Assembly: GCA_963204795.1 (NCBI GenBank)
Contig: CAUJHX010000182.1
Coordinates: 56,903-120,902 of the forward strand
DNA from: Pseudomonadota bacterium
Lineage (GTDB): Bacteria; Pseudomonadota; Gammaproteobacteria; Steroidobacterales; Steroidobacteraceae
Direction of reading: 5' to 3'
DNA length: 64,000 nucleotides
Shown here: positions 7,395 through 52,964 of the stretch, in pieces
Layout of the letters: each line of letters begins with the position of its first letter
Position numbering within the stretch: the first letter of the stretch is position 1
Translations under genes and position numbers: made by a program
Notes under the pieces: generated by a model
What the model was told of the DNA's origin: nothing
Database searches by the model: none
What the model saw: only the letters and a program-made list of their open reading frames with translations

Positions 7395-7759
7395 CGCGCA
7401 TCCTCCGCTAGCTGCTTCAGCCGATTCTCGATGCGAATGTACTCATCGCGAGCAGCTGTACCGCGAGAGCACCCCAGGTTGGTTGCCAAGTCGCATGCGA
7501 CGGCAACGTAGACGTGCCGGGGTGGACCCGCGCGCTCCCCCGATCCCTTTTGCCTGGGACGGAACGGCGAGATCGCTTGCCCGCAAGCGCAGCACGCCAC
7601 CGTCACGGCAAGAGCTGCCTGGAGCAAGTCCTTGTCCATCAGTTGGCTGTTCAGCTCGATGCGTCGGCGCGGCTTCTGGTGGCCACCGTCGCGCGCGTAC
7701 ATTTCGATCTTGATGTACGGCGCGAGTCGCTCGAAAAGCGGGTGCACGGTGATGCTCAT
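7391..7759 (-). CDS. hypothetical protein (122 aa)
   Basis: ATGA overlap at 7756-7759. Contains a CCACG motif. Confidence 0.55.
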   Translation of the reverse strand: MSITVHPLFERLAPYIKIEMYARDGGHQKPRRRIELNSQLMDKDLLQAALAVTVACCACGQAISPFRPRQKGSGERAGPPRHVYVAVACDLATNLGCSRGTAARDEYIRIENRLKQLAEDAR

Positions 7760-8172
7760 TTCATCCTCCTGCCTTCTTCGATAGCCTTCGCCGCGCCGAC
7801 CAGAGCGTCCAGCGACGAGAACGCCGCGCCGACGGCGACGAGCGCCGCCTCCAGCTCATGTAGCCGTCGTTCATGCTGCGTCAGTGCCTGATCGCGCTCG
7901 GCAATCTTCAGTTGCAGCGGATCGCCTTGCGCCGCGGCGAGCCGATGGTAGGTCCGAGATGATTCGAGCTTTTCGCGCAGCTCGGACAACTCTCGCTCGT
8001 CTTTCGGCGCGAGCGCGATGCCGCTGCGTAGCGCGGCGTCTATCCGCTTGAGTAGCTCGTCCCCTTCGCGCAGCGATGGCCTAGTGTGCGCGGTCGGGCA
8101 GAGCGTCAGCTCTTCGAGCGCGGCCTGCATCCACTGGCGGCAGTCCAAAAGCAGCTCATCGCGGTTCGCCAC
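7756..8172 (-). CDS. coiled-coil hypothetical protein
   Basis: I prefer GTG 8172 (AGAAGGGGA RBS 6 nt upstream) over the track TTG 8202. Helical, heptad-like sequence. Confidence 0.5.
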   Translation of the reverse strand: MANRDELLLDCRQWMQAALEELTLCPTAHTRPSLREGDELLKRIDAALRSGIALAPKDERELSELREKLESSRTYHRLAAAQGDPLQLKIAERDQALTQHERRLHELEAALVAVGAAFSSLDALVGAAKAIEEGRRMK

Positions 8173-15161: not shown

Positions 15162-16108
15162 GCGAGAGCCAGGACGAGCGTGGCGCTGGTGGATTGGTGC
15201 CGCTCAGCGAGGTGATGATGGAACACCTGAAGCCGGCGCACGACGCGATGAGGGCTCGACGCCTGGAATGGTGGTCGCAGCGCGAGATCGCTGACGGCGC
15301 GAAGGAGAAGGGCTGGCGCTGGGTGCGAAAGCTGATCCTGCCGGCCGACGTCACGCGCGAAGAGATCGCAGCGCTTGAGCCGGTGCTGCAGTGGGCGCAA
15401 GAGCGGCTGGATCAGTGCAGCACATGTCCGAAGACCGGCGGCGCGTGCGACGTGGATTACTACATGGGCGCGGGTGAAGGCACCGCGCCGGTGTGGAACG
15501 CCGAGACGCGCGATGTCGAGTTCAAGCCGTGCGCACGGTTCTACGAGCACCGCATCCGCTTGCGACTCGCCGGCTTCGGAGTGCCAGAGGTTCTGCTTGG
15601 TGCGAACTTCGACAACTTCAGCGTCAGTGACGAGCTGCGCGCCGAGATGCAGGCGTATGTCGCTAGCTTCAAGGACGTAGGCGCGAAGGGCTACTACCTG
15701 AACGGCAGCGTCGGTACAGGCAAGAGCCATCTGGCCGCAGCGATAACGCGAGCGCTCGTCGAGAAGCGGATCATTGGCTCGGCCTACTTCGCGTACGTGC
15801 CGAAGTTCTTCGACGAGATCCGAAACAACTTCGACCGTCCCGTCGAAGAACGCGACGAGTTCATGCGGCGCGTGCTGCAGTGCGATCTGCTCGTGATGGA
15901 TGACCTGGGCGCGGAGCGAACGACCGAGTGGGTGCGCGACCAGCTCGGGATCATCATCCACATGCGCTGGGCGAACCAGAAGCCAGTGCTGGTCACAAGC
16001 AACCGGACTTTGGAAGAGTACCGAGAGCTGCTCGGTGAGCGCGCCTACTCGCGCTTGCGCTCGCTGACTCCGTATCGTCGCCTCGTCGGAGGCACGGACC
16101 AGCGATGA
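15158..16108 (+). CDS. DnaC/IstB-like AAA+ helicase loader
   Basis: 316 aa from ATG 15158 (ATGA overlap). Walker A GSVGTGKSHLAAAI and Walker B LLVMDDLGAE. Confidence 0.8.
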   Translation: MSESQDERGAGGLVPLSEVMMEHLKPAHDAMRARRLEWWSQREIADGAKEKGWRWVRKLILPADVTREEIAALEPVLQWAQERLDQCSTCPKTGGACDVDYYMGAGEGTAPVWNAETRDVEFKPCARFYEHRIRLRLAGFGVPEVLLGANFDNFSVSDELRAEMQAYVASFKDVGAKGYYLNGSVGTGKSHLAAAITRALVEKRIIGSAYFAYVPKFFDEIRNNFDRPVEERDEFMRRVLQCDLLVMDDLGAERTTEWVRDQLGIIIHMRWANQKPVLVTSNRTLEEYRELLGERAYSRLRSLTPYRRLVGGTDQR

Positions 16109-21878: not shown

Positions 21879-22336
21879 TCCAGCTCGTGACGGCCCGAAG
21901 CGGCATCGGCTGTCGGATCGATGCCCACCGACTGATCGAGCGGCTGTGGATCGGGTCAGCTCCGAGCCGCGACAAGGATCTCGGCGCATGCGGGTTCGAT
22001 GCGGTGGTTCTTTGCGCCGAGGAGTATCAGCCGCGAGGCGCCTTCGGATCGGCGACCGCGGTGCACGCCGGCTTCGACGACGGCGAAATGGATACGCGGA
22101 CTGCGCAGGTCGCGTCGGGAGCTGCCGAAGAGGTCGTTCGCCGGTGGCGGAGGGGTGAGCGCGTGCTAGTGACTTGCATGGCCGGCCGCAACCGCTCGGG
22201 TCTCGTGAGCGCGCTCGCGCTTCGCCGGATCGGCGGGGTAACCGGGCGTCAGGCGCTGCGACATGTGCAGATGATGCGGCCGACCGCCTTGACGAACCCC
22301 AACTTCGCCAACTTCCTCGCAACGCTCGGTGCGTGA
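21875..22336 (+). CDS. dual-specificity (Cys-based) protein phosphatase
   Basis: 153 aa from GTG 21875 (GTGA overlap). CX5R(S/T) active-site loop VLVTCMAGRNRSGLV. Upstream RLWIGSAP and DAVVLCAEE are typical DSP context. Confidence 0.7.
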   Translation: MIQLVTARSGIGCRIDAHRLIERLWIGSAPSRDKDLGACGFDAVVLCAEEYQPRGAFGSATAVHAGFDDGEMDTRTAQVASGAAEEVVRRWRRGERVLVTCMAGRNRSGLVSALALRRIGGVTGRQALRHVQMMRPTALTNPNFANFLATLGA

Positions 22337-23064
22337 TGTTCGGATACCTGCCTGACCCAGAAGACAAGCGCGATCTGCCGTTCGACTTTTTGTCCACGCA
22401 GCAGGTTCCGCCCGAAGTCGACCTTCAGGGCCGTTGTGTCGCGATCCCGAATCAGGGCGGCACCTCCAGCTGCGTCGGACAGGCGACCCGCCAGGGCTTC
22501 GGCGTCGAAGAGGCGCGCTACGGGATCATCGACCCCGCGTCGGCCATGGGCATCTACTTCAACGCCCGCGCCGAGCATGGCGTCGAGAAGTTCGACTCTG
22601 GCACGCATGTGCGAACCGCCATCAAGTCCGCGGTGAAGTTCGGCCCGCTCCGCGAGCGAGACTGGCCGTTCGACGCCTCGCTGATCAACAAGCGTCCACC
22701 ATGGCGCGCATACCGCAACGCCCACGACGGCAAGGGCCCGCAGGGCTACTACCGCATCGTCGAAATCGGAGACGCTCGACTCGACGCGATCCGTCGCGCG
22801 TTGGCGGCCGAGCACCCGGTCGTCTTCGGCACGAACGTCGCGGAGAGCTTCACGCAGGACGACGGGCCGTTCCGGATCGACCGCCCGGACTCGTCGGAGC
22901 GTATTGCGGGCGGCCACGCCATGTGTCTCGTCGGCTACAAGGACGACATGTTCCGTGTCGCCAACTCCTGGGGCACCGGCTGGCGCGACCAAGGCTTCGC
23001 TTGGATGACCGAGAGCTACCTGACCTGGGTCAGCACGCGCGATCTTTGGGTCATCGTGGTGTGA
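22336..23064 (+). CDS. papain-like cysteine peptidase (C1 family)
   Basis: 242 aa from ATG 22336 (TGATG overlap). QGGTSSCVGQA (Gln/Cys), GGHAMCLVGY (His) and NSWGTGWRDQGF (Asn-Ser-Trp). Confidence 0.85.
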   Translation: MFGYLPDPEDKRDLPFDFLSTQQVPPEVDLQGRCVAIPNQGGTSSCVGQATRQGFGVEEARYGIIDPASAMGIYFNARAEHGVEKFDSGTHVRTAIKSAVKFGPLRERDWPFDASLINKRPPWRAYRNAHDGKGPQGYYRIVEIGDARLDAIRRALAAEHPVVFGTNVAESFTQDDGPFRIDRPDSSERIAGGHAMCLVGYKDDMFRVANSWGTGWRDQGFAWMTESYLTWVSTRDLWVIVV

Positions 23065-31822: not shown

Positions 31823-32398
31823 GTGTCTGACGCTCATGCGACGGACACGTGTATGCAGTTCCCCGGTCTCACCCCCCAGCCGCCCGCGACTTTGTCGGGA
31901 TTCAACGGCGCCCCGGACACCGTCCGGGCGATGGTCCGGCAGGCGCAGGGGCTCCGCGGGGAGAAGTCCATGCTGGTCCGCTCCGTGGTCGAGCGGATCA
32001 CGGCCGGGCTCCAGCCGAAGGACTACCTCGGCGAGATGATCGCTGTGCGCAACTGGGTCGCGGAGAACGTGCGCTACCTGAACGACCCGCTGCACGTCGA
32101 GCTGGTGAAGGACCCGCAGCGCCTGATTGAAGAGGTCATGGCGTGGGGTAAGGCGTCGGCCGATTGCGACGAGATCGCGTGCCTCATCGGCACCATGTGC
32201 TTGCAGCTCGGGCGCGTCGTCGAGTTCGTGATCGTCGGCTTCGGCGAGCGCGGCAGCTACTCGCACGTGTTCTGCCGCGTGCTGGAGCCCAAGTCCAACA
32301 AGTGGGTGGTTCTCGACACGGTAGCGGGAACAGGTGAGCGCGGCATGCTCCAGCGCGTGACCACCTACAAGACCTGGAGCCTGGACGAGGCAGCATGA
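31823..32398 (+). CDS. transglutaminase-like (papain-fold) cysteine protease-domain protein
   Basis: 191 aa. SADCDEIACLIGTMCLQLG (Cys), SYSHVFCRV (His) and WVVLDTV (Asp) occur in the order and spacing typical of the transglutaminase-like core. Confidence 0.6.
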   Translation: MSDAHATDTCMQFPGLTPQPPATLSGFNGAPDTVRAMVRQAQGLRGEKSMLVRSVVERITAGLQPKDYLGEMIAVRNWVAENVRYLNDPLHVELVKDPQRLIEEVMAWGKASADCDEIACLIGTMCLQLGRVVEFVIVGFGERGSYSHVFCRVLEPKSNKWVVLDTVAGTGERGMLQRVTTYKTWSLDEAA

Positions 32399-34788: not shown

Positions 34789-35520
34789 ATGCGACAAGTG
34801 CGAACGCGAGGTGGAGTCTTCGGCAGCGGAGGCTACGGCGGCGGACTCTTCGACGGATCCCAATCTGGCTTTGGCGGCGTTGGCGGTCTCGGTGCGACGT
34901 ACGAGCAAGCTGCGGCCGGTCTGGGGGCCATCCAGGACCCGACGGGTCAATCCTGGAACAACACCACGTACCAGGCCTGCATGGGACATCAGGTCCAGAA
35001 GTGCGGGGCCGAAGGCTACGCCTACAAGTGGAGCGCAGCGGAAACGAATGCGTGCATCGAGGCGGCACAGAAGGGCTGCATCGCCGCCGCGAAAGCTGCT
35101 GCCACTTCGCTGTCGAAGGCCCAGGTGATCGCTTTGCAGCAAGCGATCAACGCGAAGCTGCAGCAATACAACTACTGCCCCATCGGGGTAGACGGAAATC
35201 TGGGACCGACGACGTGCGGGGCGGCAGCATGGGCCGCCGGCGTGGGCGCTGCAGGCGTCACGGTCCCTGGTGCTTGCGGCACCACCATCAAAGTGGGCAG
35301 CGGGTTCCTGAAGGACTGCGCTCCGGGGACTCCGCCCCCAGAGCCGGCGCCGGTGACTCCGCCTGCGCCCCCTCCCGTCGCGCCGCCGCCTGTCACTCCG
35401 CCCATCCCGCCGCCGCCCATCAAGAAGGGTGGCGTCTCCACCGCCTGGATCGTCGGAGGCCTCCTGGCCGCAGGCCTCGTCGCCGGCGTCGCGGTCGCGG
35501 CCTCGAAGAAGAAGCACTGA
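34789..35520 (+). CDS. tail-anchored membrane protein with PG-binding-like domain (243 aa)
   Basis: VIALQQAINAKLQQYNYCPIGVDGNLGPTTCGAAAW resembles a peptidoglycan-binding (PG_binding_1-type) repeat. C-terminus AWIVGGLLAAGLVAGVAVAASKKKH. Confidence 0.6.
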   Translation: MRQVRTRGGVFGSGGYGGGLFDGSQSGFGGVGGLGATYEQAAAGLGAIQDPTGQSWNNTTYQACMGHQVQKCGAEGYAYKWSAAETNACIEAAQKGCIAAAKAAATSLSKAQVIALQQAINAKLQQYNYCPIGVDGNLGPTTCGAAAWAAGVGAAGVTVPGACGTTIKVGSGFLKDCAPGTPPPEPAPVTPPAPPPVAPPPVTPPIPPPPIKKGGVSTAWIVGGLLAAGLVAGVAVAASKKKH

Positions 35521-38626: not shown

Positions 38627-39802
38627 ATGACCTACCATTTCATAGGCGCCCCCGGAATCGGCGAATACACCGGCTACAACACGGGTCCAGTCGGAGCAGA
38701 AATCGTGCGGCGCGGAGGCGCCACGGATAGCTCCAGTCTGAAGGCCTACGCTGCGGCTGGCGCTGGCGCCGGAGGCGCAGCGTTGTGTACGGCGTACGGA
38801 GCGGCGGCTGCGGCGCCGTTGTGTGCCAGCATCGCCTCAACGGTTGTCGGTACGCTGCTCAGCGTCGGCAAAGCCACCGCCGGCCCCGGCTGCTACAGCA
38901 TTGCCCATTATTGGAACAACAACGCGCTCCCGCGCGTAAGAGCAGCTGCCGAGGGGCAGCTGGCGATTCGCAGCTACCTGGCAATGCGCGATCAGGCTAT
39001 CGACGAAGCGGCGAAGGCTGGGGCGGACAAGAAGTGGGCGGACAAGTGGCTATCGGAGCACGGCATCCCTGGCGCACCGATCATTCCGGAGTGGTCGCCG
39101 CGACAAGACCTGTACGAGACGTACAAGGCGATGGCGATCTGGTCGGAGCACCCCGTGGGCGCGGATCCTGTTGCAAAAGCGCAGGGGTATACGCACGGAA
39201 GCGGCATCAACCGCTGCGCGACCAACTACTTGTCCGGTCAGAGCTGTGGCCCAAGCGCTCAAAGCGTCGCAGACCAGCTCGGTCGCAAATGCCCCGAGTT
39301 CCTGCTGACCGCCTATCACTACCCGTTTGGATCACCTGCCGCCCCCGGAGAGCCGATCAACTGGGCAATGGTTGGCGCATACCAGGCCGTCCAGACGCTT
39401 CCTGGTCAGGCCAAGTCGGGACAGTGGTGGCCTGACGTCTGTCTGCCTATGCCCAACATGTTCGCCGGACAAGGATCGAGGCCGATCAATTCGACAACGC
39501 CGGGGTACTCCGCTCCGCAGGGCGAGGACGTCTGCAAAGCTCAGCCCAAGGTCAATGCCGCCAAGTGGACAACTTTCGCCAAAGTCATCCCCACGCAGCT
39601 CGCCGCAGAGCTGAGATTCAAGCTGCAGGATTCCAAGCCGCAGTTGCTCGCTGACGCAAAAAAACTCGGCGTCTTGAGCAGTCGTCTCGTACTCGTCCGG
39701 GCGGAGCCCAGGAAAGGCAAAAGCTCCGCTCTCGCAATCGCAGCCGTTGGCATCGCGGGACTTGGTGCCGGCGGGTGGTGGTGGTGGAAGCGCCGGCGCT
39801 AG
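38627..39802 (+). CDS. large tail-anchored membrane protein (391 aa)
   Basis: Starts MTYHFIGAPGIGEYTGY. Cys-containing ectodomain. C-terminus ALAIAAVGIAGLGAGGWWWWKRRR. Confidence 0.7.
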   Translation: MTYHFIGAPGIGEYTGYNTGPVGAEIVRRGGATDSSSLKAYAAAGAGAGGAALCTAYGAAAAAPLCASIASTVVGTLLSVGKATAGPGCYSIAHYWNNNALPRVRAAAEGQLAIRSYLAMRDQAIDEAAKAGADKKWADKWLSEHGIPGAPIIPEWSPRQDLYETYKAMAIWSEHPVGADPVAKAQGYTHGSGINRCATNYLSGQSCGPSAQSVADQLGRKCPEFLLTAYHYPFGSPAAPGEPINWAMVGAYQAVQTLPGQAKSGQWWPDVCLPMPNMFAGQGSRPINSTTPGYSAPQGEDVCKAQPKVNAAKWTTFAKVIPTQLAAELRFKLQDSKPQLLADAKKLGVLSSRLVLVRAEPRKGKSSALAIAAVGIAGLGAGGWWWWKRRR

Positions 39803-39996: not shown

Positions 39997-40075
39997 CCAC
40001 CCGTTAGCGACAACGTGGGTCGTGGCGTCTGACCGCCTCCACTGTTCTGCCGCGTAGGCAGAGGTGTATGTGGGC

Positions 40076-42388
40076 ATGAGTCAGAAAGCCGTCGGACGAG
40101 CCTTCAGGATCACGGACAAGGACGCGAGGTCATATGACCGGACGACCAAGCCGCGCTCCAAGATGCGCCCGAACCCGATGGGGGTGACCACGCTCGCGAT
40201 GGTCAACGGCCGCGGCGCATATGCGTCAGCGAAGGCTGGCGCTCAGGGCCAAACCAGGGCGCAGCGCCTCGCGCGGGCCCGCAAGCTGATCGGAGGCAAG
40301 GGCATGCAGTCCAACGCTCGCGGCCATCGCGCCGCGTTCATTTCCGCCATGCGGTCCAACAAGGGCTCCGCGAAGAGCAAGGGCTCGGGCGCCAAGAGCA
40401 CGGATCTCCGCCGCCGCGGCAAGCGGCTGGCCGCCTACAAGTCCGCCCTGAAGCGCAACGGGACCAAGGCCGGCGCGGCTCGGGCGGCGCTTCGCGCGGT
40501 GCCGTTCACCGCGAACGAGCGCAAGCGCAAGACGAGCTTCGCGGGCGTGAAGGCTCGCAAGAAGTACCGCCGCAACGACTTCGTCGGTGTCGGCAAGTCG
40601 GCCTGGGGCGAAGCGGGCGCAAGCAAGCCGGCAGCGAAAGCGAAGAACAAGCAGCCTCGCACGCAGCGTCGCCCGACGCGCGCGCAGTACCAGGCTCCTC
40701 CTCCAGAGAAAAAGAAGACCTCGCGAAAGGGAAAGCAAGTGGCGAAAGCGAAGCGAAAGACCAAGGCAAAGAAGCGTCGCGCGGCCGGTTCCCAGTACCG
40801 GACCGTGAAGCAGACCGTGAAGCGCAAGACTCGCGTCGCGTTCGGCAAGTACAAGCGTGCCCGGCTCTACAACCCGCGCACCGGGAAGACCGAGTACAGC
40901 TACATGTACCGCTCCGGCGGCAAGCTGCGCCGGATCCCGACCGCAGCCGTCTCGGGCTGGGGAGAGCGGGGCAAGAAGTCCGGCGAGCGCGCCACGAAGA
41001 TGGCGGCTCGCATGCAGGCGGCGCGCAAGCGCGCTGCCGACCGAATCCTCAAGGAGGGCGACGTGTTCATCCCGAACAAGAAGCGCAAGACCAAGAAGAA
41101 GCGCAAGGGCTCCAGCAAGCGCAAGAGCGCGAAGCGCGTGGCGGCCGGCAAGAAGGCAGCTCGCACGCGCAAGCGCCGGGCGAAGGCATCGGGCGCGAAG
41201 CGGCGCAAGTCGAAGGGCGGCGCGAAGCGCAAGCGCAAGAGCGCGAAGGCATCGGGCGCGAAGCGGCGCAAGTCGAAGGGCGGCGCGAAGCGCAAGCGCA
41301 AGAGCGCGAAGCGCGTGGCGGCCGGCAAGAAGGCAGCTCGCACGCGCAAGCGCAAGGGCGGCGGCAAGAAGCGCAAGGCGAGCGCGAAGCGCGGCGGCAA
41401 GCGCGGCGGCAAGCGCCGGAGCGGCGCAAAGCGTCTGCGGAAGGGCACGTACTACGTGGCCAACCGTCGGCGTCGGCGGAGCAAGGGTCGTCGGATGCGC
41501 AAGAACGCGTTCATGGCGAACCTGAAGAACGTGCTCATCACCGGCACGCTCGTCGCCGTCGGCTACATGGGTCACCGCGTGCTCACCTCGCTCGCCTGCG
41601 AGTACATCTTCACGCCGTACGTCACGGCGCCCGAAGGCAAGGAGCCGAACCTCGCGCTCAAGACCTGGGAGAAGCCCATCTGCGGCGCCGTCGTCGGCCT
41701 CGTGGGTGTCGGCGCGCTCTCGGTCATGGCCGACAAGCGGATCATGTCGGGTGAAACCGCCATGAAGATCGGTGGCGGCATGGTGGCCTCGCTCGTTCAG
41801 TACGTCGTCGTGAGCGCTCTCGCTCAGTTCGACCAGCCGAAGGCAGCGAGCTACCTGAGCGGCTACTCCAACTCGGCGGCCTACGGCCTGCGCGGCAACC
41901 GCCGCGGCATGTCCGGGATGTCGAGCATCATGCCCCACTACCAGCAGCTGGGAGCCTTCCAGCAGGCGGCGGCGGGCATGGGCGAGTACTTCACCGGCAC
42001 CGGCGCCTTCGAGCAGGCGGCGGCGGGCGTCGGCGAGTACTTCGTGCCGGGTGGCACCAAGGGCGTCGGTCAGTACGAGGCCGCGGGCCCGCTCGCCATG
42101 CAGGCGGCGGCCAACGGCATCGGCGAGATCGAGGACGGCATCCGTCCGGACTCGAACCTCGACCACGTGCTCGATCTGGCGGAGTCGGCGGCCGGCCTCG
42201 GTGAGTACTACACCGCGACCCCGGGCGCCGGCGGCTATGCCGAGGGCACCGTCCCCCAGCAGAGCCAGTGGATCCCCAACGGTCCGCTGTGGGCCGGCAC
42301 CATGGCGGCCAAGGACACGATGGCCACGAGCGAGCTGCCTGCAGGCGTGCTCGCGACCGTCGGAGGCAACGGCGTCCTGAGCGGCTGA
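40076..42388 (+). CDS. polybasic (Lys/Arg/Ala) repeat protein fused to a membrane domain and a GxGEY-repeat tail
   Basis: 770 aa from ATG 40076 (track GTG 40064). The first roughly 470 aa are K/R/A/G-rich with perfect internal repeats. Hydrophobic helices follow: VLITGTLVAVGYMG, ICGAVVGLVGVGALSVMA and IGGGMVASLVQYVVVSALA. The tail carries GMGEYF, GVGEYF, GVGQYE, GIGEIE and GLGEYY. Confidence 0.7.
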   Translation: MSQKAVGRAFRITDKDARSYDRTTKPRSKMRPNPMGVTTLAMVNGRGAYASAKAGAQGQTRAQRLARARKLIGGKGMQSNARGHRAAFISAMRSNKGSAKSKGSGAKSTDLRRRGKRLAAYKSALKRNGTKAGAARAALRAVPFTANERKRKTSFAGVKARKKYRRNDFVGVGKSAWGEAGASKPAAKAKNKQPRTQRRPTRAQYQAPPPEKKKTSRKGKQVAKAKRKTKAKKRRAAGSQYRTVKQTVKRKTRVAFGKYKRARLYNPRTGKTEYSYMYRSGGKLRRIPTAAVSGWGERGKKSGERATKMAARMQAARKRAADRILKEGDVFIPNKKRKTKKKRKGSSKRKSAKRVAAGKKAARTRKRRAKASGAKRRKSKGGAKRKRKSAKASGAKRRKSKGGAKRKRKSAKRVAAGKKAARTRKRKGGGKKRKASAKRGGKRGGKRRSGAKRLRKGTYYVANRRRRRSKGRRMRKNAFMANLKNVLITGTLVAVGYMGHRVLTSLACEYIFTPYVTAPEGKEPNLALKTWEKPICGAVVGLVGVGALSVMADKRIMSGETAMKIGGGMVASLVQYVVVSALAQFDQPKAASYLSGYSNSAAYGLRGNRRGMSGMSSIMPHYQQLGAFQQAAAGMGEYFTGTGAFEQAAAGVGEYFVPGGTKGVGQYEAAGPLAMQAAANGIGEIEDGIRPDSNLDHVLDLAESAAGLGEYYTATPGAGGYAEGTVPQQSQWIPNGPLWAGTMAAKDTMATSELPAGVLATVGGNGVLSG
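41117..41353 (+). repeat. nested perfect direct repeats inside the polybasic gene
   Basis: A 63-bp unit occurs twice in tandem at 41180-41242 and 41243-41305 (AKASGAKRRKSKGGAKRKRKS). It is flanked by a 60-bp direct repeat at 41117-41176 and 41294-41353 (KRKSAKRVAAGKKAARTRKR). Confidence 0.9.
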
Positions 42389-42540: not shown

Positions 42541-43323
42541 ATGTCGAAATTGACCAACGTGAGGGAGCGCGTCCACCAGCCGTTCTACGACACCCTGATC
42601 CGGACTTCCGGTCTCGGTGGCACCATCCAGCCGGTCGGCAGCCCCACCAACCTCTTCACCAACCGCGCTCGCGCGGACGAGATCGTCGCGCTGACGAACC
42701 TGGACAACGGCAGCACCCTGCCGTCCGACCAGTCGCACGTGACGCTCGCGCTCCGCTGCTTCACGTGGTTCCGCAACCCGCAGATCCGCTCGGCGGCCCC
42801 GGGCGCGAACGTGCAGGTCAACAACAACGGCGACTACTCGCAGGCCGGCGCGGCGGCCTTCTGGGCGCTGGGCGGCGGCCTTCCGGGCGACGGATCGTCC
42901 ATCGGTTCGATCCAGGACGTCTACCGGCTGCACTGGCAGTCGATGGAGCAGCTCCACTGGTCGTACGGCACTGGTGAGAAGTTCAGTATCACCAACATGG
43001 CGACCAAGTACTTCCCCGACGGGGGTGGCCTCTCGGGCGACATGGGCGGGACCTCGGACCTGATCCACTGGCAGAACGGTACGCCGGACCACACCGCGAT
43101 CCTCCGGCTCGCGCGTGCGATCCTGCTTCCGCCTCGCCAGAACGTGAAGTGCGTCGCCAACATCAGCGCCCTCCCGGCTGGTGGCCAGGCGGCGGCCGTG
43201 GGCGCAGTGACGGCCATCGGCCGGAACATGCTCTCGCTGGTCGACAACCTGAACGCGGTGGACGGGATCGCCAAGGTGATCCAGTTCTGCTTCGACGGCT
43301 TGTTCGCACGCGATGTCCAGTGA
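42541..43323 (+). CDS. major capsid protein candidate (260 aa, beta-rich)
   Basis: Best RBS in the window (AAAGGAGAATTACAGCC-ATG). Own 150-bp upstream spacer. An intrinsic terminator follows immediately. The function is inferred from expression signals and position only. Confidence 0.45.
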   Translation: MSKLTNVRERVHQPFYDTLIRTSGLGGTIQPVGSPTNLFTNRARADEIVALTNLDNGSTLPSDQSHVTLALRCFTWFRNPQIRSAAPGANVQVNNNGDYSQAGAAAFWALGGGLPGDGSSIGSIQDVYRLHWQSMEQLHWSYGTGEKFSITNMATKYFPDGGGLSGDMGGTSDLIHWQNGTPDHTAILRLARAILLPPRQNVKCVANISALPAGGQAAAVGAVTAIGRNMLSLVDNLNAVDGIAKVIQFCFDGLFARDVQ

Positions 43324-43332
43324 TGTCGCGTA

Positions 43333-43356
43333 GTTACGTGGGCTAGCTCACGTAAC
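43333..43356. repeat. 24-bp near-perfect palindrome centred on GCTAGC
   Basis: GTTACGTG-G-GCTAGC-T-CACGTAAC. The two off-centre mismatches form a G:T pair. Confidence 0.85.
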
Positions 43357-43373
43357 ACACGAAGGCGCAAAAG

Positions 43374-43406
43374 GCTGCCCTTGGCCCCGTGCTGGGGGCA
43401 GCTTTT
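43374..43406 (+). terminator. intrinsic terminator after the capsid-candidate gene
   Basis: GCTGCCC (43374-43380) pairs with GGGCAGC (43396-43402) and is followed by TTTT (43403-43406). An A-run lies upstream. Confidence 0.6.
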
Positions 43407-43457
43407 CGCCACTTATGGCACCGGGACCAATCCCGGGTACTCCAATCGGAGGCACAT

Positions 43458-44423
43458 ATGGCAAATCTCGATCAGATCCTTCGTCAGATGCAGCAGCAGA
43501 TCGGGTTCGCGGCGGCGACGGCGCGCGAGACCCAGACTGGCATGCAGAACGTGAGCGGCGACCAGGCGCTCATCCGTCAAGAGCTTCAGCGCCAGCAGCG
43601 CGACCTGCAGAACGTGGCCGACGCCCTCATGCGCGTCAAGGCCAGCGGCGGCCAGGGGGGCGCGAGCATCAGCGACCACGTCCGCTACATCGAGTCGATC
43701 CCGGGGCGACGCGTTCCGTTCGACATGCTGGTGGACATCCCCATCGGGGCCAACCAGACCGCTCAGACGCAGGGCACGATCACGGTGTCGCAGGACGGAC
43801 CGTTCGTGGCCGTCGCTCGCTTCGCGATCTTTCAGAGCGCGTTCCAGTTCCAGTTCCGCGATCCGCAGGACAACAGCCTGGCTGCGTTCCAGGGACGCTC
43901 CTTCGGTCGCTACCGGCCGATCCACTCGGTGAACGACTGGAATGACGCGGGCGCGGGCTACAACCCGGTCATCGCACTGGGCGCAGGCGCGCCGATCTTC
44001 GCGAGCCCGAGCAACCACTCGTCGTTCCGCACGATGGAGTGGGATGGCGTCGTCGAGTTCTTCAACCAGGGCGCGGCCTATCCGCGGTCCAACATCCAGG
44101 TGCCGAGCGCCTTCTGGGTGAGCGAGAACAACGCTCCGTTCCAGCTCGGTGCGCTCGACTTCTTCGAGCGCGGCGAGACGATGCAGTGGCGAGTCACGCC
44201 GACGCACAGCAACAACCCAGCAGCGGGCAACGTGAGCGGCTTCGCCGCCGGCGGGTTCTACCCGTTCCTGGACAGCCAGTACGACGTGCAAGAGGGCGTG
44301 TCCGATCCGTTCCTGGCAGGTGTGGAAACCGATCCGATCACGCGGCTGCCGGACGGCATCCTGACCATCGGCTTCCACGGGTTCAGGATCATCCAGCCGC
44401 CGGGGCCCGTGAGCATGACCTGA
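43458..44423 (+). CDS. capsid-associated protein candidate (321 aa; N-terminal coiled coil plus beta-rich domain)
   Basis: ATG 43458 with a GGAGG RBS. Starts MANLDQILRQMQQQIGF. Beta-like segments TITVSQDGPFVAVARFAIFQS and ILTIGFHGFRIIQ. Confidence 0.45.
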   Translation: MANLDQILRQMQQQIGFAAATARETQTGMQNVSGDQALIRQELQRQQRDLQNVADALMRVKASGGQGGASISDHVRYIESIPGRRVPFDMLVDIPIGANQTAQTQGTITVSQDGPFVAVARFAIFQSAFQFQFRDPQDNSLAAFQGRSFGRYRPIHSVNDWNDAGAGYNPVIALGAGAPIFASPSNHSSFRTMEWDGVVEFFNQGAAYPRSNIQVPSAFWVSENNAPFQLGALDFFERGETMQWRVTPTHSNNPAAGNVSGFAAGGFYPFLDSQYDVQEGVSDPFLAGVETDPITRLPDGILTIGFHGFRIIQPPGPVSMT

Positions 44424-44436
44424 GAGGGGGAGCAGC

Positions 44437-45300
44437 ATGGCGAACGACAGCTTCATCGACGGTTCGCGGGCGAGAGAGCTGAGATTGGCTCCCCCACCCG
44501 CGCCAGCCTATGCGCCGGTGCTTCGCCCCGGCGCCAGCGCGATGCCGTATCCGCCGGAGCCGGGGTCGGCGACGACGGGCGGCTCGTGCGCGGCTCAGCG
44601 CGTGCAGCTCGCCGGTGGGGCTCTCAGCAGCCTGATGGTCCACCCGTTCGTGACCCCCTTCGAGCAGCTGTACCGACGGCTGCCCGAGGAGGGCATGTTC
44701 AGCCCGGACGTCTCGCCCCAGCGGCCGTTCGCCTTCGAGCTTGGCGCGTTCCAGGTTCCGGATCGGTTCGCGCTCTGCCTGTTCGACCTGCGCCCGGACG
44801 TGTACCGGCTCAGCGGGCTCGACGCGGGCGACTTCGTTCCTGTCGAGGCCCGCAGGTTCAGCTCCATCATGGGCTTCGAGATCACGGTGGATCAGCGTCA
44901 CCCTGGGAACCTGCAGTACCAGCTCGATCCGGTCGCCATCCAGGCGACGGCACAGGCGTTCACGCGCGCAGTCAGTGGGCCGGCCGGCGCCGGCGGGCTG
45001 ATCCCGCAGCCGCCACCGGCATCGGTGTTCAACATCGGCGCGGCCAACAGCTTCGCCAACGCCGCCGGCGCAGGGACCGCGCTGATGCCCCAGCGCCCGA
45101 CACGCTACGGTCCGCTGTCGGTCCCGTTCATGCTCGTGGCGCGCTCGAAGCAGACCGTTCAGGTCCGCTGCGTCATCTTCCGCCCGGTGTCGGCGGCCCT
45201 CGCCTTCATCGAGTACGACATCGCCGGCATGCTCTTTCCGACGGAGTGGCTCGATGCGATGATGGAGTGCCTCAAGCCCATCAACAACCAGCCCCGATGA
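44437..45300 (+). CDS. capsid-associated protein candidate (287 aa, beta-rich)
   Basis: GGGGGAG RBS. Contains FAFELGAFQVPDRFALCLFDLRP and VPFMLVARSKQTVQVRCVIFRPV. Confidence 0.45.
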   Translation: MANDSFIDGSRARELRLAPPPAPAYAPVLRPGASAMPYPPEPGSATTGGSCAAQRVQLAGGALSSLMVHPFVTPFEQLYRRLPEEGMFSPDVSPQRPFAFELGAFQVPDRFALCLFDLRPDVYRLSGLDAGDFVPVEARRFSSIMGFEITVDQRHPGNLQYQLDPVAIQATAQAFTRAVSGPAGAGGLIPQPPPASVFNIGAANSFANAAGAGTALMPQRPTRYGPLSVPFMLVARSKQTVQVRCVIFRPVSAALAFIEYDIAGMLFPTEWLDAMMECLKPINNQPR

Positions 45301-48724: not shown

Positions 48725-48771
48725 CGCTCGCGGTGGCGGGATAGTCTTTGACGGAAAGGTTGATCGAAAAG

Positions 48772-49752
48772 ATGGCGTACTACAGCGGTTCTGGGGCGAC
48801 GATTCGGTCGGGCGCGGCTGGCCTTGGCGAGTACTTCGACGCGGCCCAGGGCGCCCGTCCTCCGGCGCCGGTTCAGGCGTTTCAGGACGGCGTCTTCAGC
48901 GGCGGCGGCGCGGACGTGTGGATGAGCGACGTCGGTGACGATCCGGGGCCGCTCCGCTCGTACCACGACGGCTCGCTCGGCGCTTGCCACGGGTGCGGCA
49001 TGGGAGCCTACGACCAGGCAGCTGCCGGGCTCGGCATGCCGCTGTGGATCGATGGCAAGCCGGTGGACCGGCCCGTCTCCATCATGCACGGGCCGGCGGT
49101 CGATCCGACGTCAGCCTTCCGTGATGGCAGCTTGGGCGAGTACTTCGGCGGAGGCGGAGTGCCGTGGGCGGGCTCGTTCCGCGATGGCAGTCTGGGCACC
49201 GTCGCTGCGCCGCCGAAGACGGTGGACCTGACCGATCCCCAGGCGCTCAAGGAGACGAAGATGGCCATTGCCATGATCGTCGCCGACATCGCCATGGGCA
49301 GCGGCTCCGCTCCGAACGTCGGGGCCAAGTACTACGACGAGGCCTTCTACGCCGACCCGATCTGGAGCGCGAAGGCGTCGGAGCTGTGGGATGCCGCGGC
49401 GAAGAAGCTCGCTGGCGTGACGAAGTCTCAGGTCGACGAGCTGTCGCAGTCCTCGAAGGGCAACACCTTCCCGACCGCGAACGGCTTGGCCGCGGTGCTC
49501 GCATACGGCGTCGGCGCGCCTGTCGGCGACCCGAAGTCCTTCGCGACGAACTTCCCCGTGCTGAGCGCCTGGTACGGCCAGGTGGCGGCGGCGAAGGGCA
49601 ACCTGACTGGGTTCAAGGTCTCCGCGCCGTTCTTCACCGTGCAGGAGAAGGTCTCGGGCAAGAGCATGTTCGCCGGCATGAGCAAGACGAGCCTCGTTCT
49701 CGGCGTCGGCGCCGTCGCGGCTCTCACCTTCTTCTTGATCCGGAAGAAGTGA
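48772..49752 (+). CDS. tail-anchored membrane protein with GLGEYF repeats (326 aa)
   Basis: I prefer ATG 48772 (MAYYSGSG); the track start is TTG 48748. Contains AGLGEYF, AAGLGMPL, GSLGEYF and GSLGTVA. C-terminus SLVLGVGAVAALTFFLIRKK. Confidence 0.65.
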   Translation: MAYYSGSGATIRSGAAGLGEYFDAAQGARPPAPVQAFQDGVFSGGGADVWMSDVGDDPGPLRSYHDGSLGACHGCGMGAYDQAAAGLGMPLWIDGKPVDRPVSIMHGPAVDPTSAFRDGSLGEYFGGGGVPWAGSFRDGSLGTVAAPPKTVDLTDPQALKETKMAIAMIVADIAMGSGSAPNVGAKYYDEAFYADPIWSAKASELWDAAAKKLAGVTKSQVDELSQSSKGNTFPTANGLAAVLAYGVGAPVGDPKSFATNFPVLSAWYGQVAAAKGNLTGFKVSAPFFTVQEKVSGKSMFAGMSKTSLVLGVGAVAALTFFLIRKK

Positions 49753-49764
49753 GATGAAGGCAGC

Positions 49765-50331
49765 ATGGGGCTGTTCGATGACCTTCTGGAAGACACCGGC
49801 GCTGCGCCCCCTTGGGGCCGCATCGCGGCGACCTTCCTGAGCGGTCTGCAGACCGCCCAAGCCGGCGGCGGCAAGGTCGTCGATCAGCTCTTGCAGTGGG
49901 GCTCATTGCTCGCCCGGAACGCTCCGGCGCGTTGGGGCGAGCAGGCGCTCAAGCCTGTCTTCTGCGCGGCGCACAAGTGCCAGGCACAGGCGCTTGTGCC
50001 TTGCGCGGCCTGCGGCAAGGCGTACTGCCTCGCGCATGTGCTGGTGAGCTACCACGCCGAGGGGATTTGCGAGCCTTGCGCGCTGGAGTTCGTGACCATG
50101 AAGCGCAAGCGGGCGACCAACGAGGATTCGGTGGCGGAGGCCTACAAGACCTTGCGCCTGCCCAAGACGTCCGATTGGGACGACGTGCGGGCCGCCTATC
50201 GCGCGCTGGCGGCCAAGCACCATCCCGACAAGCAGAAGACCGAGGCCGCTCGGGCCAAGGCCGAGAAGCGCATGAAGGAGATCAACGCCGCCTACGCGGT
50301 ACTGAAGCTCCACTTGCAGGAGGCAGCCTGA
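49765..50331 (+). CDS. J-domain (DnaJ-like) protein with central Cys-rich region
   Basis: 188 aa. C-terminal AYKTLRLPKTSDWDDVRAAYRALAAKHHPDKQ...MKEINAAYAVL (HPD motif). Central CAAHKCQAQALVPCAACGKAYCLAH...CEPC. Confidence 0.8.
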   Translation: MGLFDDLLEDTGAAPPWGRIAATFLSGLQTAQAGGGKVVDQLLQWGSLLARNAPARWGEQALKPVFCAAHKCQAQALVPCAACGKAYCLAHVLVSYHAEGICEPCALEFVTMKRKRATNEDSVAEAYKTLRLPKTSDWDDVRAAYRALAAKHHPDKQKTEAARAKAEKRMKEINAAYAVLKLHLQEAA

Positions 50332-52601: not shown

Positions 52602-52964
52602 ATGAGCTACTACCAGATGCCCAACAACGGACTCTCGGCCGGCTACTACCAGCAGCTGCCGGTGGCCACTCCGCTCTGGCAGGAAGCGCCGGTGCCAGGC
52701 TGGGGCGTGAACCCGCTTCGCGCCGGCCCGCGGCGCGTCGGCGTCGGCGCATATGCGACGCCGGTTCCAGGTTGCGGGTCCTGCGGGTCCTACAGCGACG
52801 ACGTGCCCTTGAACAGCGCCGTGCTGCCGCGCTACGCGCCCATCGGTGCGGCGGGCTCAGAGGAGACGACCTACGGCGTGGTCGCCATGGCCGCCGCTGG
52901 CGGCATCGTGCTCGGGCTGGCCTTCGGGTGGCTCTGGTTCGCGAACAAGCCCATGAAGGCATGA
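52602..52964 (+). CDS. tail-anchored membrane protein (120 aa)
   Basis: ATG 52602 with an AGGAG RBS. Starts MSYYQMPNNG. C-terminus YGVVAMAAAGGIVLGLAFGWLWFANKPMKA. Confidence 0.65.
   Translation: MSYYQMPNNGLSAGYYQQLPVATPLWQEAPVPGWGVNPLRAGPRRVGVGAYATPVPGCGSCGSYSDDVPLNSAVLPRYAPIGAAGSEETTYGVVAMAAAGGIVLGLAFGWLWFANKPMKA

What the first reader, a model, noticed from the sequence alone, without database searches (positions are those of the whole stretch)
41962..42215. Recurrent (A/G)-G-(L/M/V/I)-G-E-Y-(F/Y) motif shared by many putative structural proteins
The polybasic protein tail contains AAGMGEYF, AAGVGEYF, KGVGQYE, NGIGEIE and AAGLGEYY, partly as about 54-nt direct DNA repeats.

The same short motif or its GLG core appears near the N-termini of other module proteins:
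- AGLGEYF, GSLGEYF, AAGLGMPL, GSLGTVA (48772-49752)
- PGIGEYTG (38627)
- GGLGATYEQAAAGLGAI (34789)
- LGLGASEYV (29078)
- RGLGAGV and GSLGAVT (35535)
- HGLGQLT (34244)
- QGLGSLGQT (46839)
- TGLGADE (47057)

A short linear motif shared by unrelated proteins suggests either a protease processing site or a docking peptide for the capsid or membrane. Two papain-fold enzymes are encoded, at 22336-23064 and 31823-32398.
Basis: partly seen in the sequence, partly recalled or inferred. Interest (0 to 1): 0.6.

Follow-up and report, generated by a model that had tools for sequence, protein, structure and literature searches.

The report
Shared glycine-aromatic motif on viral membrane proteins
A short glycine-aromatic peptide (G-hydrophobic-G-E-Y-F) recurs, usually three times, in the disordered tail of a histone-like membrane protein and in other small membrane proteins of an undescribed ~120-kb bacterial virus family, and most likely lets these proteins dock to one common partner, though that function is untested.

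Summary
The motif is real, sits at the stated coordinates, and is far more frequent than chance.

**Two classes, not one.**
- Class 1 is a decapeptide unit, G-Φ-G-x-[YF]-x-(Q-A-A-A). Its best form is [GA]-[MVLI]-G-E-[YF]-[FY]-[ATS]-[AP].
  - It lies in the conserved, predicted-disordered C-terminal tail of the 774-aa polybasic protein. Of 98 homologues, 77 have exactly three copies.
  - It also occurs in a few tail-anchored proteins: genes 48760 and 34798, and a small gene next to the 48760 orthologue in relatives.
  - A scoring matrix built from relatives finds none at ≥16 bits in 904,000 residues of the host-bin proteome, against four in the viral contig.
  - Two divergent lineages share lineage-specific motif extensions between the tail and another protein.
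- Class 2 is a G-L-G-[A/G] core in the first 50 residues of many module proteins. The window has 17, against 4.5±2 expected, and 5 of 6 relatives show the same excess.

**The two papain-fold enzymes.** Only the transglutaminase-like Cys-His-Asp protein (31853-32398) is conserved, in 6 of 6 relatives. The C1-like peptidase occurs in 1 of 6.

**Function.** My best reading is a multivalent docking tag for a shared partner, probably the shell proteins (confidence about 0.4). Protease processing and self-association remain open. The motif belongs to an undescribed virus family and matches no known motif.

The parts
40064..42388 (+). Gene for the 774-aa protein: polybasic N-terminal ~480 aa, three hydrophobic helices, then a motif-bearing tail
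   Evidence: ORF with GC3 0.89; 98 homologues
41504..41827 (+). Three predicted helices (aa 481-520, 536-557, 563-588), the membrane domain
   Evidence: AF2 pLDDT >90; hydrophobicity conserved across 91 homologues
41864..42385 (+). Conserved but predicted-disordered C-terminal tail (aa 601-774). It carries the motif copies plus other conserved islands: DGIRPDSNLDxVLDLAES, QSQWIPNGPLWAG and GGNGxLSG
   Evidence: pLDDT 38-54; column conservation; always C-terminal in the 111 representatives
41963..41992 (+). Class-1 copy 1, QAAAGMGEYF
   Evidence: PSSM 30.9 bits; conserved column block
41996..42013 (+). Degenerate unit GTGAFE, which leads into the next QAAAG
   Evidence: Matches [GS]ΦGxAr
42014..42043 (+). 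Class-1 copy 2, QAAAGVGEYF. It is a 42-nt direct repeat of copy 1 at 51-nt spacing
   Evidence: PSSM 25.7 bits; DNA repeat at 90% identity
42062..42079 (+). Conserved variant GVGQYE; the family consensus is QGVGxYEPAGPLAMQA
42116..42133 (+). GIGEIE, a weak look-alike that is not conserved as a motif copy
   Evidence: Low column conservation; PSSM below 10 bits
42188..42211 (+). Class-1 copy 3, AAGLGEYY, at a fixed ~60 aa from the C-terminus in the family
   Evidence: PSSM 27.1 bits; median distance to the C-terminus 63 aa, minimum 58
48760..49752 (+). Tail-anchored 330-aa protein. Its N-terminal disordered region is built from motif units
48814..48837 (+). AAGLGEYF near the N-terminus (aa 19-26)
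   Evidence: PSSM 19.2 bits; a GAAGΦGE[YF]F-type match (≥10 bits) at aa ~18-21 in 15 of the 22 homologues listed
48997..49035 (+). GMGAYDQAAAGLG, the decapeptide unit with its QAAA spacer
   Evidence: conserved in the family
49126..49146 (+). GSLGEYF, an Ar-x-D-G-S-L-G repeat fused to EYF
34882..34932 (+). GGLGATYEQAAAGLGAI in tail-anchored protein 34798-35520
   Evidence: [FYW][EDQR]QAAAG never occurs in the host-bin proteome; the orthologue in L002 has SFEQAAAG
52740..52757 (+). GVGAYA in tail-anchored protein 52602-52964
   Evidence: R-V-G-[IV]-G conserved in 5 of 7 members (window + L001-L004) and displaced in L005/L006; matches [GS]ΦGxAr
38651..38674 (+). PGIGEYTG in the 391-aa membrane protein; likely lineage-specific or chance
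   Evidence: Absent from the only orthologue, in L005; PSSM below 10 bits
32410..32418 (+). Example of class 2: GMG in the N-terminal tag MTYHSGMGALP
   Evidence: The N-terminal G-Φ-G is kept in three of the four other family members while the flanks vary; enrichment test
31853..32398 (+). Transglutaminase-core (papain-fold) Cys-His-Asp protein, the only conserved candidate protease or cross-linker
   Evidence: Pfam PF01841, E=4.8e-4; 6 of 6 relatives at 56-68% identity; C105, H138, D155 invariant in the window and the five relatives aligned
22333..23064 (+). Papain C1-like peptidase, an accessory gene and not part of the conserved system
   Evidence: PF00112, E=5e-7; phrog_16701; found in only 1 of 6 relatives
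42541..43323 (+). 260-aa, very conserved β-rich protein directly after the polybasic gene; candidate shell protein and candidate binding partner
   Evidence: 691 homologues, the best 120 at 62-92% identity; AF2 pTM 0.75; Foldseek gives no significant hit, with lists dominated by jelly-roll capsid proteins at E>0.01

Best explanation
**What it is.** The G-Φ-G-E-Y-F peptide is a protein-level short linear motif. More generally it is the decapeptide unit G-Φ-G-x-Ar-x-Q-A-A-A. It is displayed in flexible, membrane-tethered disordered segments.

**Proposed function (inferred).** It acts as a multivalent docking or address tag. The tail of the histone-like polybasic membrane protein, which typically carries three copies, binds one common viral partner through it. 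So do the disordered N-terminal regions of a few tail-anchored proteins.

**Proposed partner (inferred).** The partner is most likely the lattice formed by the highly conserved β-rich proteins encoded immediately downstream (42541-45300). Docking would couple genome, membrane and shell, and would sort viral membrane proteins into the particle.

**Shown versus inferred.**
- Shown: motif sequence, copy number, position, disorder, conservation, restriction to this virus family, and sharing between protein families.
- Inferred: binding itself, the identity of the partner, and membrane topology.

**The second class.** The N-terminal G-L-G-[AG] class may serve the same partner, or may be a separate tag or processing site.
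For: 1. **Conservation far beyond the flanks.** 321 GE[YF]x instances in 98 tails give the logo [GA]-[MVTLI]-G-E(93%)-Y/F-F/Y-[ATS]-[AP]. All 98 tails have at least 2 copies and 77 have exactly 3. The usual layout is a close pair (often 7-17 aa apart) plus one copy ~60 aa from the C-terminus.
2. **Conserved but disordered.** The tail is conserved along its length, yet AF2 leaves it unstructured at pLDDT 38-54, while the adjacent three helices score above 90. This is the usual signature of fold-on-binding motifs.
3. **Same unit in unrelated, membrane-anchored proteins.**
   - A small tail-anchored gene lies beside the 48760 orthologue in 4 of 6 relatives and in further IMG/VR contigs.
   - The 48760 family has 22 homologues.
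   - [FYW][EDQR]QAAAG-Φ-G occurs 0 times in 904k aa of the host bin, 4 times in the contig and 13 times in relatives, across at least 4 families.
4. **Lineage-specific variants are shared within a genome.**
   - G-x-GAYYTF[KR]PH appears in both the tail and another protein's N-terminus in L104.
   - GEYFSGVG appears in both the tail and a small Arg/Lys-tailed protein (7562-7906) in L105.
5. **Protein-level selection.** Gly codons vary (GGC, GGG, GGA, GGT) while the peptide is kept.
6. **Family-restricted.** The tandem DNA pattern hits only 10 loci in 2.9 million IMG/VR contigs, all in 110-140 kb contigs and often at two loci per genome.
7. **A plausible partner is adjacent.** The downstream 260-aa protein is the most conserved gene tested, with 691 homologues, the best 120 of them at 62-92% identity.
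Against: - No binding was tested and co-folding was not possible with these tools.
- The fold of the candidate partner is unidentified. Foldseek found nothing significant, so even the presence of an icosahedral shell under or over a membrane is inferred.
- Topology is ambiguous.
  - Three helices put the tail opposite the polybasic domain. However, an Arg-rich stretch follows helix 3 in the family consensus.
  - The basic C-termini of the tail-anchored proteins would, by the positive-inside rule, put their N-terminal motifs on the other side.
- Sharing of lineage-specific variants could reflect gene conversion or duplication rather than a common partner.
- The N-terminal G-L-G class differs in sequence and may be unrelated.
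Confidence: 0.4

Rival explanations
1. **Maturation-protease sites.** The conserved transglutaminase-fold Cys-His-Asp enzyme (31853-32398) would cleave at G-Φ-G. Φ would sit at P2 and G at P1, a papain-type preference. This would remove short N-terminal leaders from the tail-anchored proteins and cut the polybasic protein's tail. The analogy is adenovirus, ASFV and poxvirus core-protein processing at Gly-containing consensus sites.
For: - A papain-fold enzyme with an intact triad occurs in 6 of 6 relatives and heads the membrane-protein block.
- G-Φ-G is 3-5 times enriched in the first 50 residues of many module proteins and keeps its position while the flanks vary.
- Adenovirus protease cleaves (M/I/L)XGG↓X or (M/I/L)XGX↓G in seven virion precursors, including the polybasic core protein pVII (PMC4246237).
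Against: - In the tail, the strongest conservation lies on the would-be prime side (E-Y-F-[ATS]-[AP]), which is unusual for a cleavage site.
- The 48760 family has 4-6 units within ~150 aa, which would be cut into small pieces.
- The enzyme may equally be a transglutaminase or have another role, and it has no detectable relative in PDB or PHROGs.
- No clan-CE (adenain-type) or prohead-protease family appeared among the 38 proteins scanned against Pfam.
- No cleavage data exist.
Confidence: 0.2
2. **Cohesive low-complexity 'stickers'.** The Gly/Ala/Gln-rich segments with regularly spaced aromatic residues would associate with each other, in the manner of FG repeats or elastomeric proteins. This would cluster viral membrane proteins into a patch, or form a matrix layer, with no structured receptor involved.
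For: - The motifs form degenerate tandem arrays: a 10-11-aa period in L017 and L018, Ar-x-D-G-S-L-G repeats in the 48760 family, and GGVFGSGGYGGGLFDG in gene 34798.
- All carriers are membrane-tethered.
- The segments are predicted disordered.
- A J-domain protein gene is syntenic directly downstream in L001-L004, and DnaJ-domain genes lie in the same block in L105 and L106. This fits aggregation-prone clients.
Against: - Only 3 copies per tail, at fixed positions.
- The acidic residue is near-invariant (E 93%), which points to specific recognition.
- The inter-motif segments of the tail are also conserved, unlike typical spacers.
Confidence: 0.15
3. **Modification site.** The conserved Gln of [FY]-x-Q-A-A-A-G would be the acyl donor for Gln-Lys cross-linking by the transglutaminase-like enzyme, for example to the Lys-rich polybasic domain. 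Alternatively the Tyr would be modified.
For: - The second Q of the FQQAAAG block is more than 90% conserved in tails, and Q recurs in the same context in at least 4 families.
- A transglutaminase-core enzyme is universally present.
- Abundant Lys is available in the same protein.
Against: - Only about a third of GEYF copies are preceded by QAAAG.
- Most bacterial transglutaminase-core proteins are thought to be proteases (my own background knowledge, not tested here).
- There is no direct evidence.
Confidence: 0.07
4. **No dedicated function.** The recurrence would come from repeat expansion and gene conversion of a low-complexity segment among paralogous membrane-protein genes, combined with a Gly-rich composition.
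For: Copies 1 and 2 are a recent 42-nt DNA duplication at 90% identity. Lineage-specific variants are shared within genomes.
Against: - The motif and its three-copy layout persist across 98 homologues down to 26% identity, with synonymous codon turnover.
- Composition-matched and local shuffles never reach the observed counts.
Confidence: 0.08

Closest known systems
Adenovirus maturation: AVP consensus sites, and docking of the pVI/pVII N-terminal peptides in the hexon cavity
   Same: - A short Gly-containing motif recurs in several virion precursor proteins, including a polybasic DNA-condensing core protein.
- Peptides next to the sites dock into the capsomer.
- A virus-encoded cysteine protease is involved (PMC4246237; bioRxiv 10.1101/857581).
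   Different: - The consensus differs: (M/I/L)XGG↓X or (M/I/L)XGX↓G against G-Φ-G-E-Y-F.
- No clan-CE protease was found among the 38 proteins scanned against Pfam; the only conserved candidate has a transglutaminase fold.
- The carriers here are membrane-anchored.
- This is a bacterial virus and no capsid fold was recognised.
- Neither cleavage nor docking has been shown.
Capsid targeting sequence (CTS) of phage T4 internal proteins
   Same: A short shared peptide on otherwise unrelated virion proteins, thought to address them to one assembly partner. The class-2 G-L-G tags are N-terminal, like the CTS.
   Different: - Class 1 sits in a C-terminal tail in three copies.
- There is no HK97 head, scaffold core or gp21-type protease here.
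- There is no sequence resemblance.
Encapsulin cargo-loading peptides (Gly/Ser/Leu-rich, e.g. the GSLGIGSL type)
   Same: A short Gly-Φ-Gly-rich peptide at the end of a flexible linker that docks cargo to the inner surface of a protein shell. (The CLP consensus is recalled from memory, not checked here.)
   Different: - CLPs are single and C-terminal, and bind HK97-fold shells.
- Here the motif has an essential E-Y-F, is multivalent and is membrane-tethered.
- The candidate shell protein gave no significant structural match.
FG-nucleoporin and elastomeric aromatic-glycine repeats
   Same: Aromatic residues are embedded in Gly/Ala/Gln-rich disordered arrays with a short period.
   Different: There are few copies (3-6), fixed positions, an invariant acidic residue and conserved spacers.

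Membership tests
Short linear motif (SLiM) in a disordered region | 3-10 residues long, with a few fixed positions | tested here: met
   Logo [GA]-Φ-G-E-[YF]-[FY]-[ATS]-[AP] from 321 instances
Short linear motif (SLiM) in a disordered region | Located in an intrinsically disordered segment | tested here: met
   AF2 pLDDT 38-54 over aa 601-774, against >90 for the neighbouring helices. This is a prediction only.
Short linear motif (SLiM) in a disordered region | Recurs in otherwise unrelated proteins and is conserved in orthologues | tested here: met
   Tail family (98), 48760 family (22), a small tail-anchored family, and the 34798 family
Short linear motif (SLiM) in a disordered region | Binds a defined partner domain | not testable with these tools
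   No co-folding or binding assay was available
Adenovirus-type protease consensus sites | Consensus (M/I/L)-X-G-G↓X or (M/I/L)-X-G-X↓G | tested here: not met
   Position -4 relative to the second Gly is mostly Ala or small. The hydrophobic residue lies between the two glycines.
Adenovirus-type protease consensus sites | Clan CE (adenain-like) protease encoded | tested here: not met
   No such Pfam family in the 38 proteins scanned. Only a transglutaminase-core protein and a C1-like protein were found.
Adenovirus-type protease consensus sites | Cleavage at the sites in particles | not testable with these tools
   Needs virion mass spectrometry
T4-type capsid targeting sequence | Extreme N-terminal position, removed by the prohead protease at L/I-x-E | tested here: not met
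   Class 1 is in a C-terminal tail. No prohead-protease, portal or terminase family was found among the 38 proteins scanned against Pfam and the 18 against PHROGs.
Encapsulin cargo-loading peptide | Single C-terminal peptide binding an HK97-fold shell | tested here: not met
   Multiple internal copies are present, and the candidate shell protein has no HK97 match.
RTX-type Ca-binding nonapeptide (GGxGxDxUx) | Tandem nonapeptides matching the consensus, usually 5 or more | tested here: not met
   Period is mostly 7-17 aa, there are three copies, and the pattern differs.
Transglutaminase-like/papain-fold enzyme (for 31853-32398) | Ordered Cys-His-Asp triad within a Transglut_core match | tested here: met
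   PF01841, E=4.8e-4, below the curated cut-off (20.8 against 23 bits). C105, H138, D155 are invariant in the window and the five relatives aligned.

The most novel reading that the evidence does not exclude
This family of ~110-140 kb bacterial viruses has no recognisable terminase, portal or capsid fold. In it, one decapeptide code (G-Φ-G-x-Ar-x-QAAA) would address a histone-like, DNA-condensing membrane protein and a set of tail-anchored proteins to the shell lattice. A transglutaminase-fold protease would then process the proteins at the same G-Φ-G sites. That would be an independent bacterial-virus counterpart of the adenovirus pVI/pVII-hexon-AVP docking-and-cleavage system, linking genome, membrane and capsid.
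Probability: 0.15. Interest if true: 0.8.

Novelty: new variant of a known kind. Interest (0 to 1): 0.55.

Why it matters
How membrane-containing viruses select their own membrane proteins, and how they couple genome, membrane and shell, is poorly understood for bacterial viruses.

This case offers a testable handle. A whole uncultivated virus family has 98 tail homologues and 691 homologues of the putative shell protein, with no relative among 50,697 GenBank phage records. It carries a sharply defined peptide in a fixed three-copy layout on a histone-like membrane protein, and the same peptide on other membrane proteins.

The peptide gives an immediate experimental route. It can be used as bait to find the binding partner, and so probably the capsid protein of a lineage whose structural genes match nothing known. 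It can also be used as a substrate to test the conserved papain-fold enzyme.

Tried and rejected
- **Pfam and PHROGs.** I scanned 38 proteins against Pfam and 18 against PHROGs, including the motif carriers and the three β-rich proteins. None of the carriers or β-rich proteins matched any family.
- **Structure of the 260-aa protein.** Foldseek against PDB and BFVD gave no significant match. Only sub-threshold jelly-roll capsid proteins appeared, so the shell fold remains unidentified.
- **Foldseek of the tail model.** It returned generic helical bundles only.
- **C1-like peptidase as the motif's partner.** Rejected, because it is present in 1 of 6 relatives.
- **Viral VWA (MIDAS) protein as receptor for the invariant Glu.** Rejected, because it is present in 2 of 6 relatives.
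- **PDB sequence search of the transglutaminase-like protein.** No hit.
- **GenBank phage search with the 260-aa protein.** No match.
- **Full-text literature search.** The motif strings gave 0 papers, and I found no paper describing this virus group.
- **Aromatic residue after the N-terminal G-Φ-G.** Not enriched (25 of 96, against ~28% expected), so I dropped the idea that class 2 is just a degenerate class 1.
- **Topology from the positive-inside rule.** The signals contradict each other, so I make no firm claim.
Full report
**Context**

The window is positions 56903-120902 of a 122.7-kb contig. It is the longest contig of a 3.17-Mb, 66% GC metagenomic bin. The bin's RpoB is 86-89% identical to Steroidobacteraceae-like gammaproteobacterial MAGs, but the virus-host link rests on binning only.

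The contig is entirely phage-like. Recognisable genes are:
- a DnaB helicase with an intein, and a giant tyrosine recombinase;
- glycosyltransferases;
- RecT, YqaJ, ThyX, MoxR and VWA proteins.

None of the 38 proteins scanned against Pfam or the 18 against PHROGs (including the motif carriers and the three β-rich proteins) matched a terminase, portal or known capsid family. I called genes with a codon-bias model.

The region from about 27.8 to 53.3 kb is a co-oriented block of orphan genes, many of them tail-anchored membrane proteins. Related contigs of 110-140 kb exist in IMG/VR, and some have direct terminal repeats.

**Observation**

In the 774-aa protein (40064-42388) the tail holds:
- QAAAGMGEYF (41963-41992)
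- QAAAGVGEYF (42014-42043)
- GVGQYE (42062-42079)
- GIGEIE (42116-42133)
- AAGLGEYY (42188-42211)

Copies 1 and 2 are a 42-nt direct repeat at 90% identity, spaced 51 nt apart rather than about 54 nt.

**Statistics**

- Strict G[LIVM]GE[YF][FY]: 4 observed against 0.01 in within-protein shuffles.
- Encoding DNA pattern: four matches in the 122.7-kb contig against three in the other 3.04 Mb of the bin. In six relatives, all 23 matches lie on the gene strand and fall in just two genes per genome.
- A position matrix built only from relatives' tails: no hit at ≥16 bits in 903,726 residues of the bin's proteome, four in the 37,964-residue viral proteome.
- Bare G-Φ-G core outside TM segments: 34 in the module against 15.5±3.8 after local shuffling. 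The rest of the contig shows no excess, 46 against 52.9.
- G-Φ-G within the first 50 residues of module proteins: 17 against 4.5±2.0 (0 of 500 shuffles reach it). Five of six relatives repeat this.

**Anatomy of the motif**

Ninety-eight homologues of the tail, down to 26% identity, give 321 GE[YF]x instances. The logo is [GA]-[MVTLI]-G-E(93%)-Y/F-F/Y-[ATS]-[AP].

Homologues without a strict match carry TGEYF, AAGEYF or AMGEYF instead. With the matrix at ≥12 bits, every homologue has at least two copies and 77 of 98 have exactly three. The usual layout is a close pair, often 7-17 residues apart, plus one copy a fixed ~60 residues from the C-terminus.

The larger unit is a decapeptide, G-Φ-G-x-Ar-x-Q-A-A-A. 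The sequence [FYW]-[EDQR]-Q-A-A-A-G followed by Φ-G occurs:
- never in the host-bin proteome;
- four times in this contig, in three proteins: gene 34798, the polybasic tail twice, and gene 48760;
- 13 times in the 6×20 kb of relatives, in at least four protein families.

The generalised [GS]-Φ-G-x-Ar occurs 14 times in the module against 3.4±2.0 expected. Four of these hits lie in TM helices and should be discounted.

**Carriers**

Besides the tail, the strict motif sits in three places:
- A small tail-anchored protein lies immediately after the 48760 orthologue and before a J-domain gene. It occurs in 4 of 6 relatives and in further IMG/VR contigs.
- In the 48760 family, 15 of the 22 homologues listed carry a GAAGΦGE[YF]F-type match (≥10 bits) at residue ~18-21. 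These proteins start with M-x-G-A-Y-F or M-A-Y-Y, and carry several Ar-x-D-G-S-L-G repeats plus GMGAYDQAAAGLG.
- More weakly, it occurs in genes 34798 and 52602.

PGIGEYT in gene 38627 is missing from its only orthologue, and GIGEIE is not conserved.

A tandem-motif DNA pattern scanned over all of IMG/VR hit 10 loci. All lie in 110-140 kb contigs, and three contigs contribute two loci each. The motif is therefore a hallmark of this family.

**Structure**

An alignment of 91 tails shows a fixed order of conserved islands:
1. SIMPxY
2. FQQAAAGMGEYF
3. xTGEYFAP
4. GVGxYEPAGPLAMQA
5. DDGIRPDSNLDxVLDLAESAAG
6. GxGEYFTA
7. QSQWIPNGPLWAG
8. SELPAGIL…GGNGILSGG

AlphaFold2 on residues 480-774, with 42 aligned sequences, gives three confident helices at 481-520, 536-557 and 563-588 (pLDDT >90). 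The whole tail is left at pLDDT 38-54. It is conserved yet predicted disordered, which is typical of segments that fold on a partner.

In the 1.84-billion-protein representative library the tail has 111 relatives, and it is always at the C-terminus. About 20 of them are ~300-aa proteins that look like the membrane domain plus tail without the polybasic part. These may be split genes or miscalled starts.

**Two classes**

The N-terminal G-Φ-G instances prefer Leu (57%) and are followed by Ala or Gly. Aromatic residues after them are not enriched: 25 of 96, against ~28% expected.

In family alignments the G-Φ-G keeps its place while the flanks vary.

I therefore treat this as a related but distinct class.

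**Concerted variation**

Two divergent lineages share their own motif variant between the tail and another small protein of the module:
- L104: G-x-GAYYTF[KR]PH.
- L105: GEYFSGVG, with G[IL]GAYYSP repeats in a third protein.

This fits a common partner that co-evolves with its ligands. Gene conversion would give the same pattern.

**Candidate partners**

| Candidate | Coordinates | Presence in 6 relatives | Evidence |
|---|---|---|---|
| Transglutaminase-core protein | 31853-32398 | 6 of 6, 56-68% identity; C105, H138, D155 invariant in the window and the five relatives aligned | |
| C1-like peptidase | 22333-23064 | 1 of 6 | |
| VWA protein | outside the window, elsewhere on the contig | 2 of 6 | |

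The 260-aa protein directly downstream of the polybasic gene is the most conserved gene I tested. It has 691 homologues, the best 120 listed at 62-92% identity, and no hit in GenBank phages. Its model has pTM 0.75. Foldseek gives no significant match, only sub-threshold jelly-roll capsid proteins.

**Interpretation**

I favour a multivalent docking or address motif, at a confidence of about 0.4. Flexible, membrane-tethered segments would present G-Φ-G-E-Y-F to one shared partner, probably the shell lattice. This would couple the DNA-binding polybasic domain, the membrane and the shell.

Binding, the partner's identity and the topology are all inferred. The positive-inside signals conflict: an Arg-rich stretch follows helix 3, and the tail-anchored proteins have basic C-termini.

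The rivals are:
- **Protease sites (0.2).** Cleavage at G-Φ-G by the transglutaminase-fold enzyme. This parallels adenovirus AVP sites in seven precursors, including polybasic pVII (PMC4246237). It is weakened by the strong conservation of the prime-side E-Y-F.
- **Cohesive repeats (0.15).** Aromatic-glycine repeats that self-associate.
- **Modification site (0.07).** Gln-Lys cross-linking at QAAAG.
- **No dedicated function (0.08).** Repeat expansion without function.

**Novelty**

The motif strings appear in no paper of the library, and no described virus group matches. The kind of thing, a shared short peptide on virion proteins, is known from adenovirus, T4 and encapsulins. This sequence, its three-copy layout on a histone-like membrane protein and its virus family are new.

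Noticed in passing
window 16105-18825: The DnaB replicative helicase is interrupted by an intein with a LAGLIDADG homing-endonuclease domain.
   Followed up: no
L012 (G005:C1:34775-35290): In one relative with direct terminal repeats, the otherwise conserved transglutaminase-like gene is read through two in-frame TGA codons. This could be sequencing error, a pseudogene or recoding.
   Followed up: no
L002 8801-9817; L021 4517-5500; P0241, P0243, P0245, P0247 and others: In some relatives the membrane domain plus motif tail appears as a separate ~300-340-aa ORF without the polybasic domain. It may be a split gene, a frameshift in the low-complexity region, or a miscalled start.
   Followed up: partly
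window 48760-49752 and 22 homologues: The N-terminal region holds 3-6 copies of a second repeat, [FY]-x-[DE]-G-[SV]-[LF]-G (for example SYHDGSLG and AFRDGSLG). It is sometimes fused directly to EYF.
   Followed up: partly
window 42260-42298 and 42362-42385: Two further near-invariant islands lie in the disordered tail, QSQWIPNGPLWAG and the C-terminal GGNG[IV]LSG(G). They are as conserved as the GEYF copies.
   Followed up: no
window 22333-23064, aa ~69-79: The accessory C1-like peptidase contains ASAMGIYFNAR, a borderline match (13.2 bits) to the motif matrix. It is probably chance.
   Followed up: no
window 49765-50331 and orthologues: A J-domain protein with a Cys-rich zinc-finger region is syntenic directly downstream of the motif-bearing tail-anchored genes in L001-L004. 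DnaJ-domain genes lie in the same block in L105 and L106.
   Followed up: no
window 42541-43323, aa 1-27: The N-terminal arm of the putative shell protein, M-x-KLTNVRERVHQPFYDTLxRTxGLGG, is almost invariant across lineages that are otherwise 26-36% identical in the tail. It contains its own GLG, with G24 invariant.
   Followed up: no
L106 8187-8795: A membrane-protein homologue in a divergent relative carries a weak PG_binding_1 (PF01471) hit on record.
   Followed up: no
L104 1-1276: A Cas12f1-like TNB (TnpB-type) gene lies at the edge of a divergent relative's contig.
   Followed up: no
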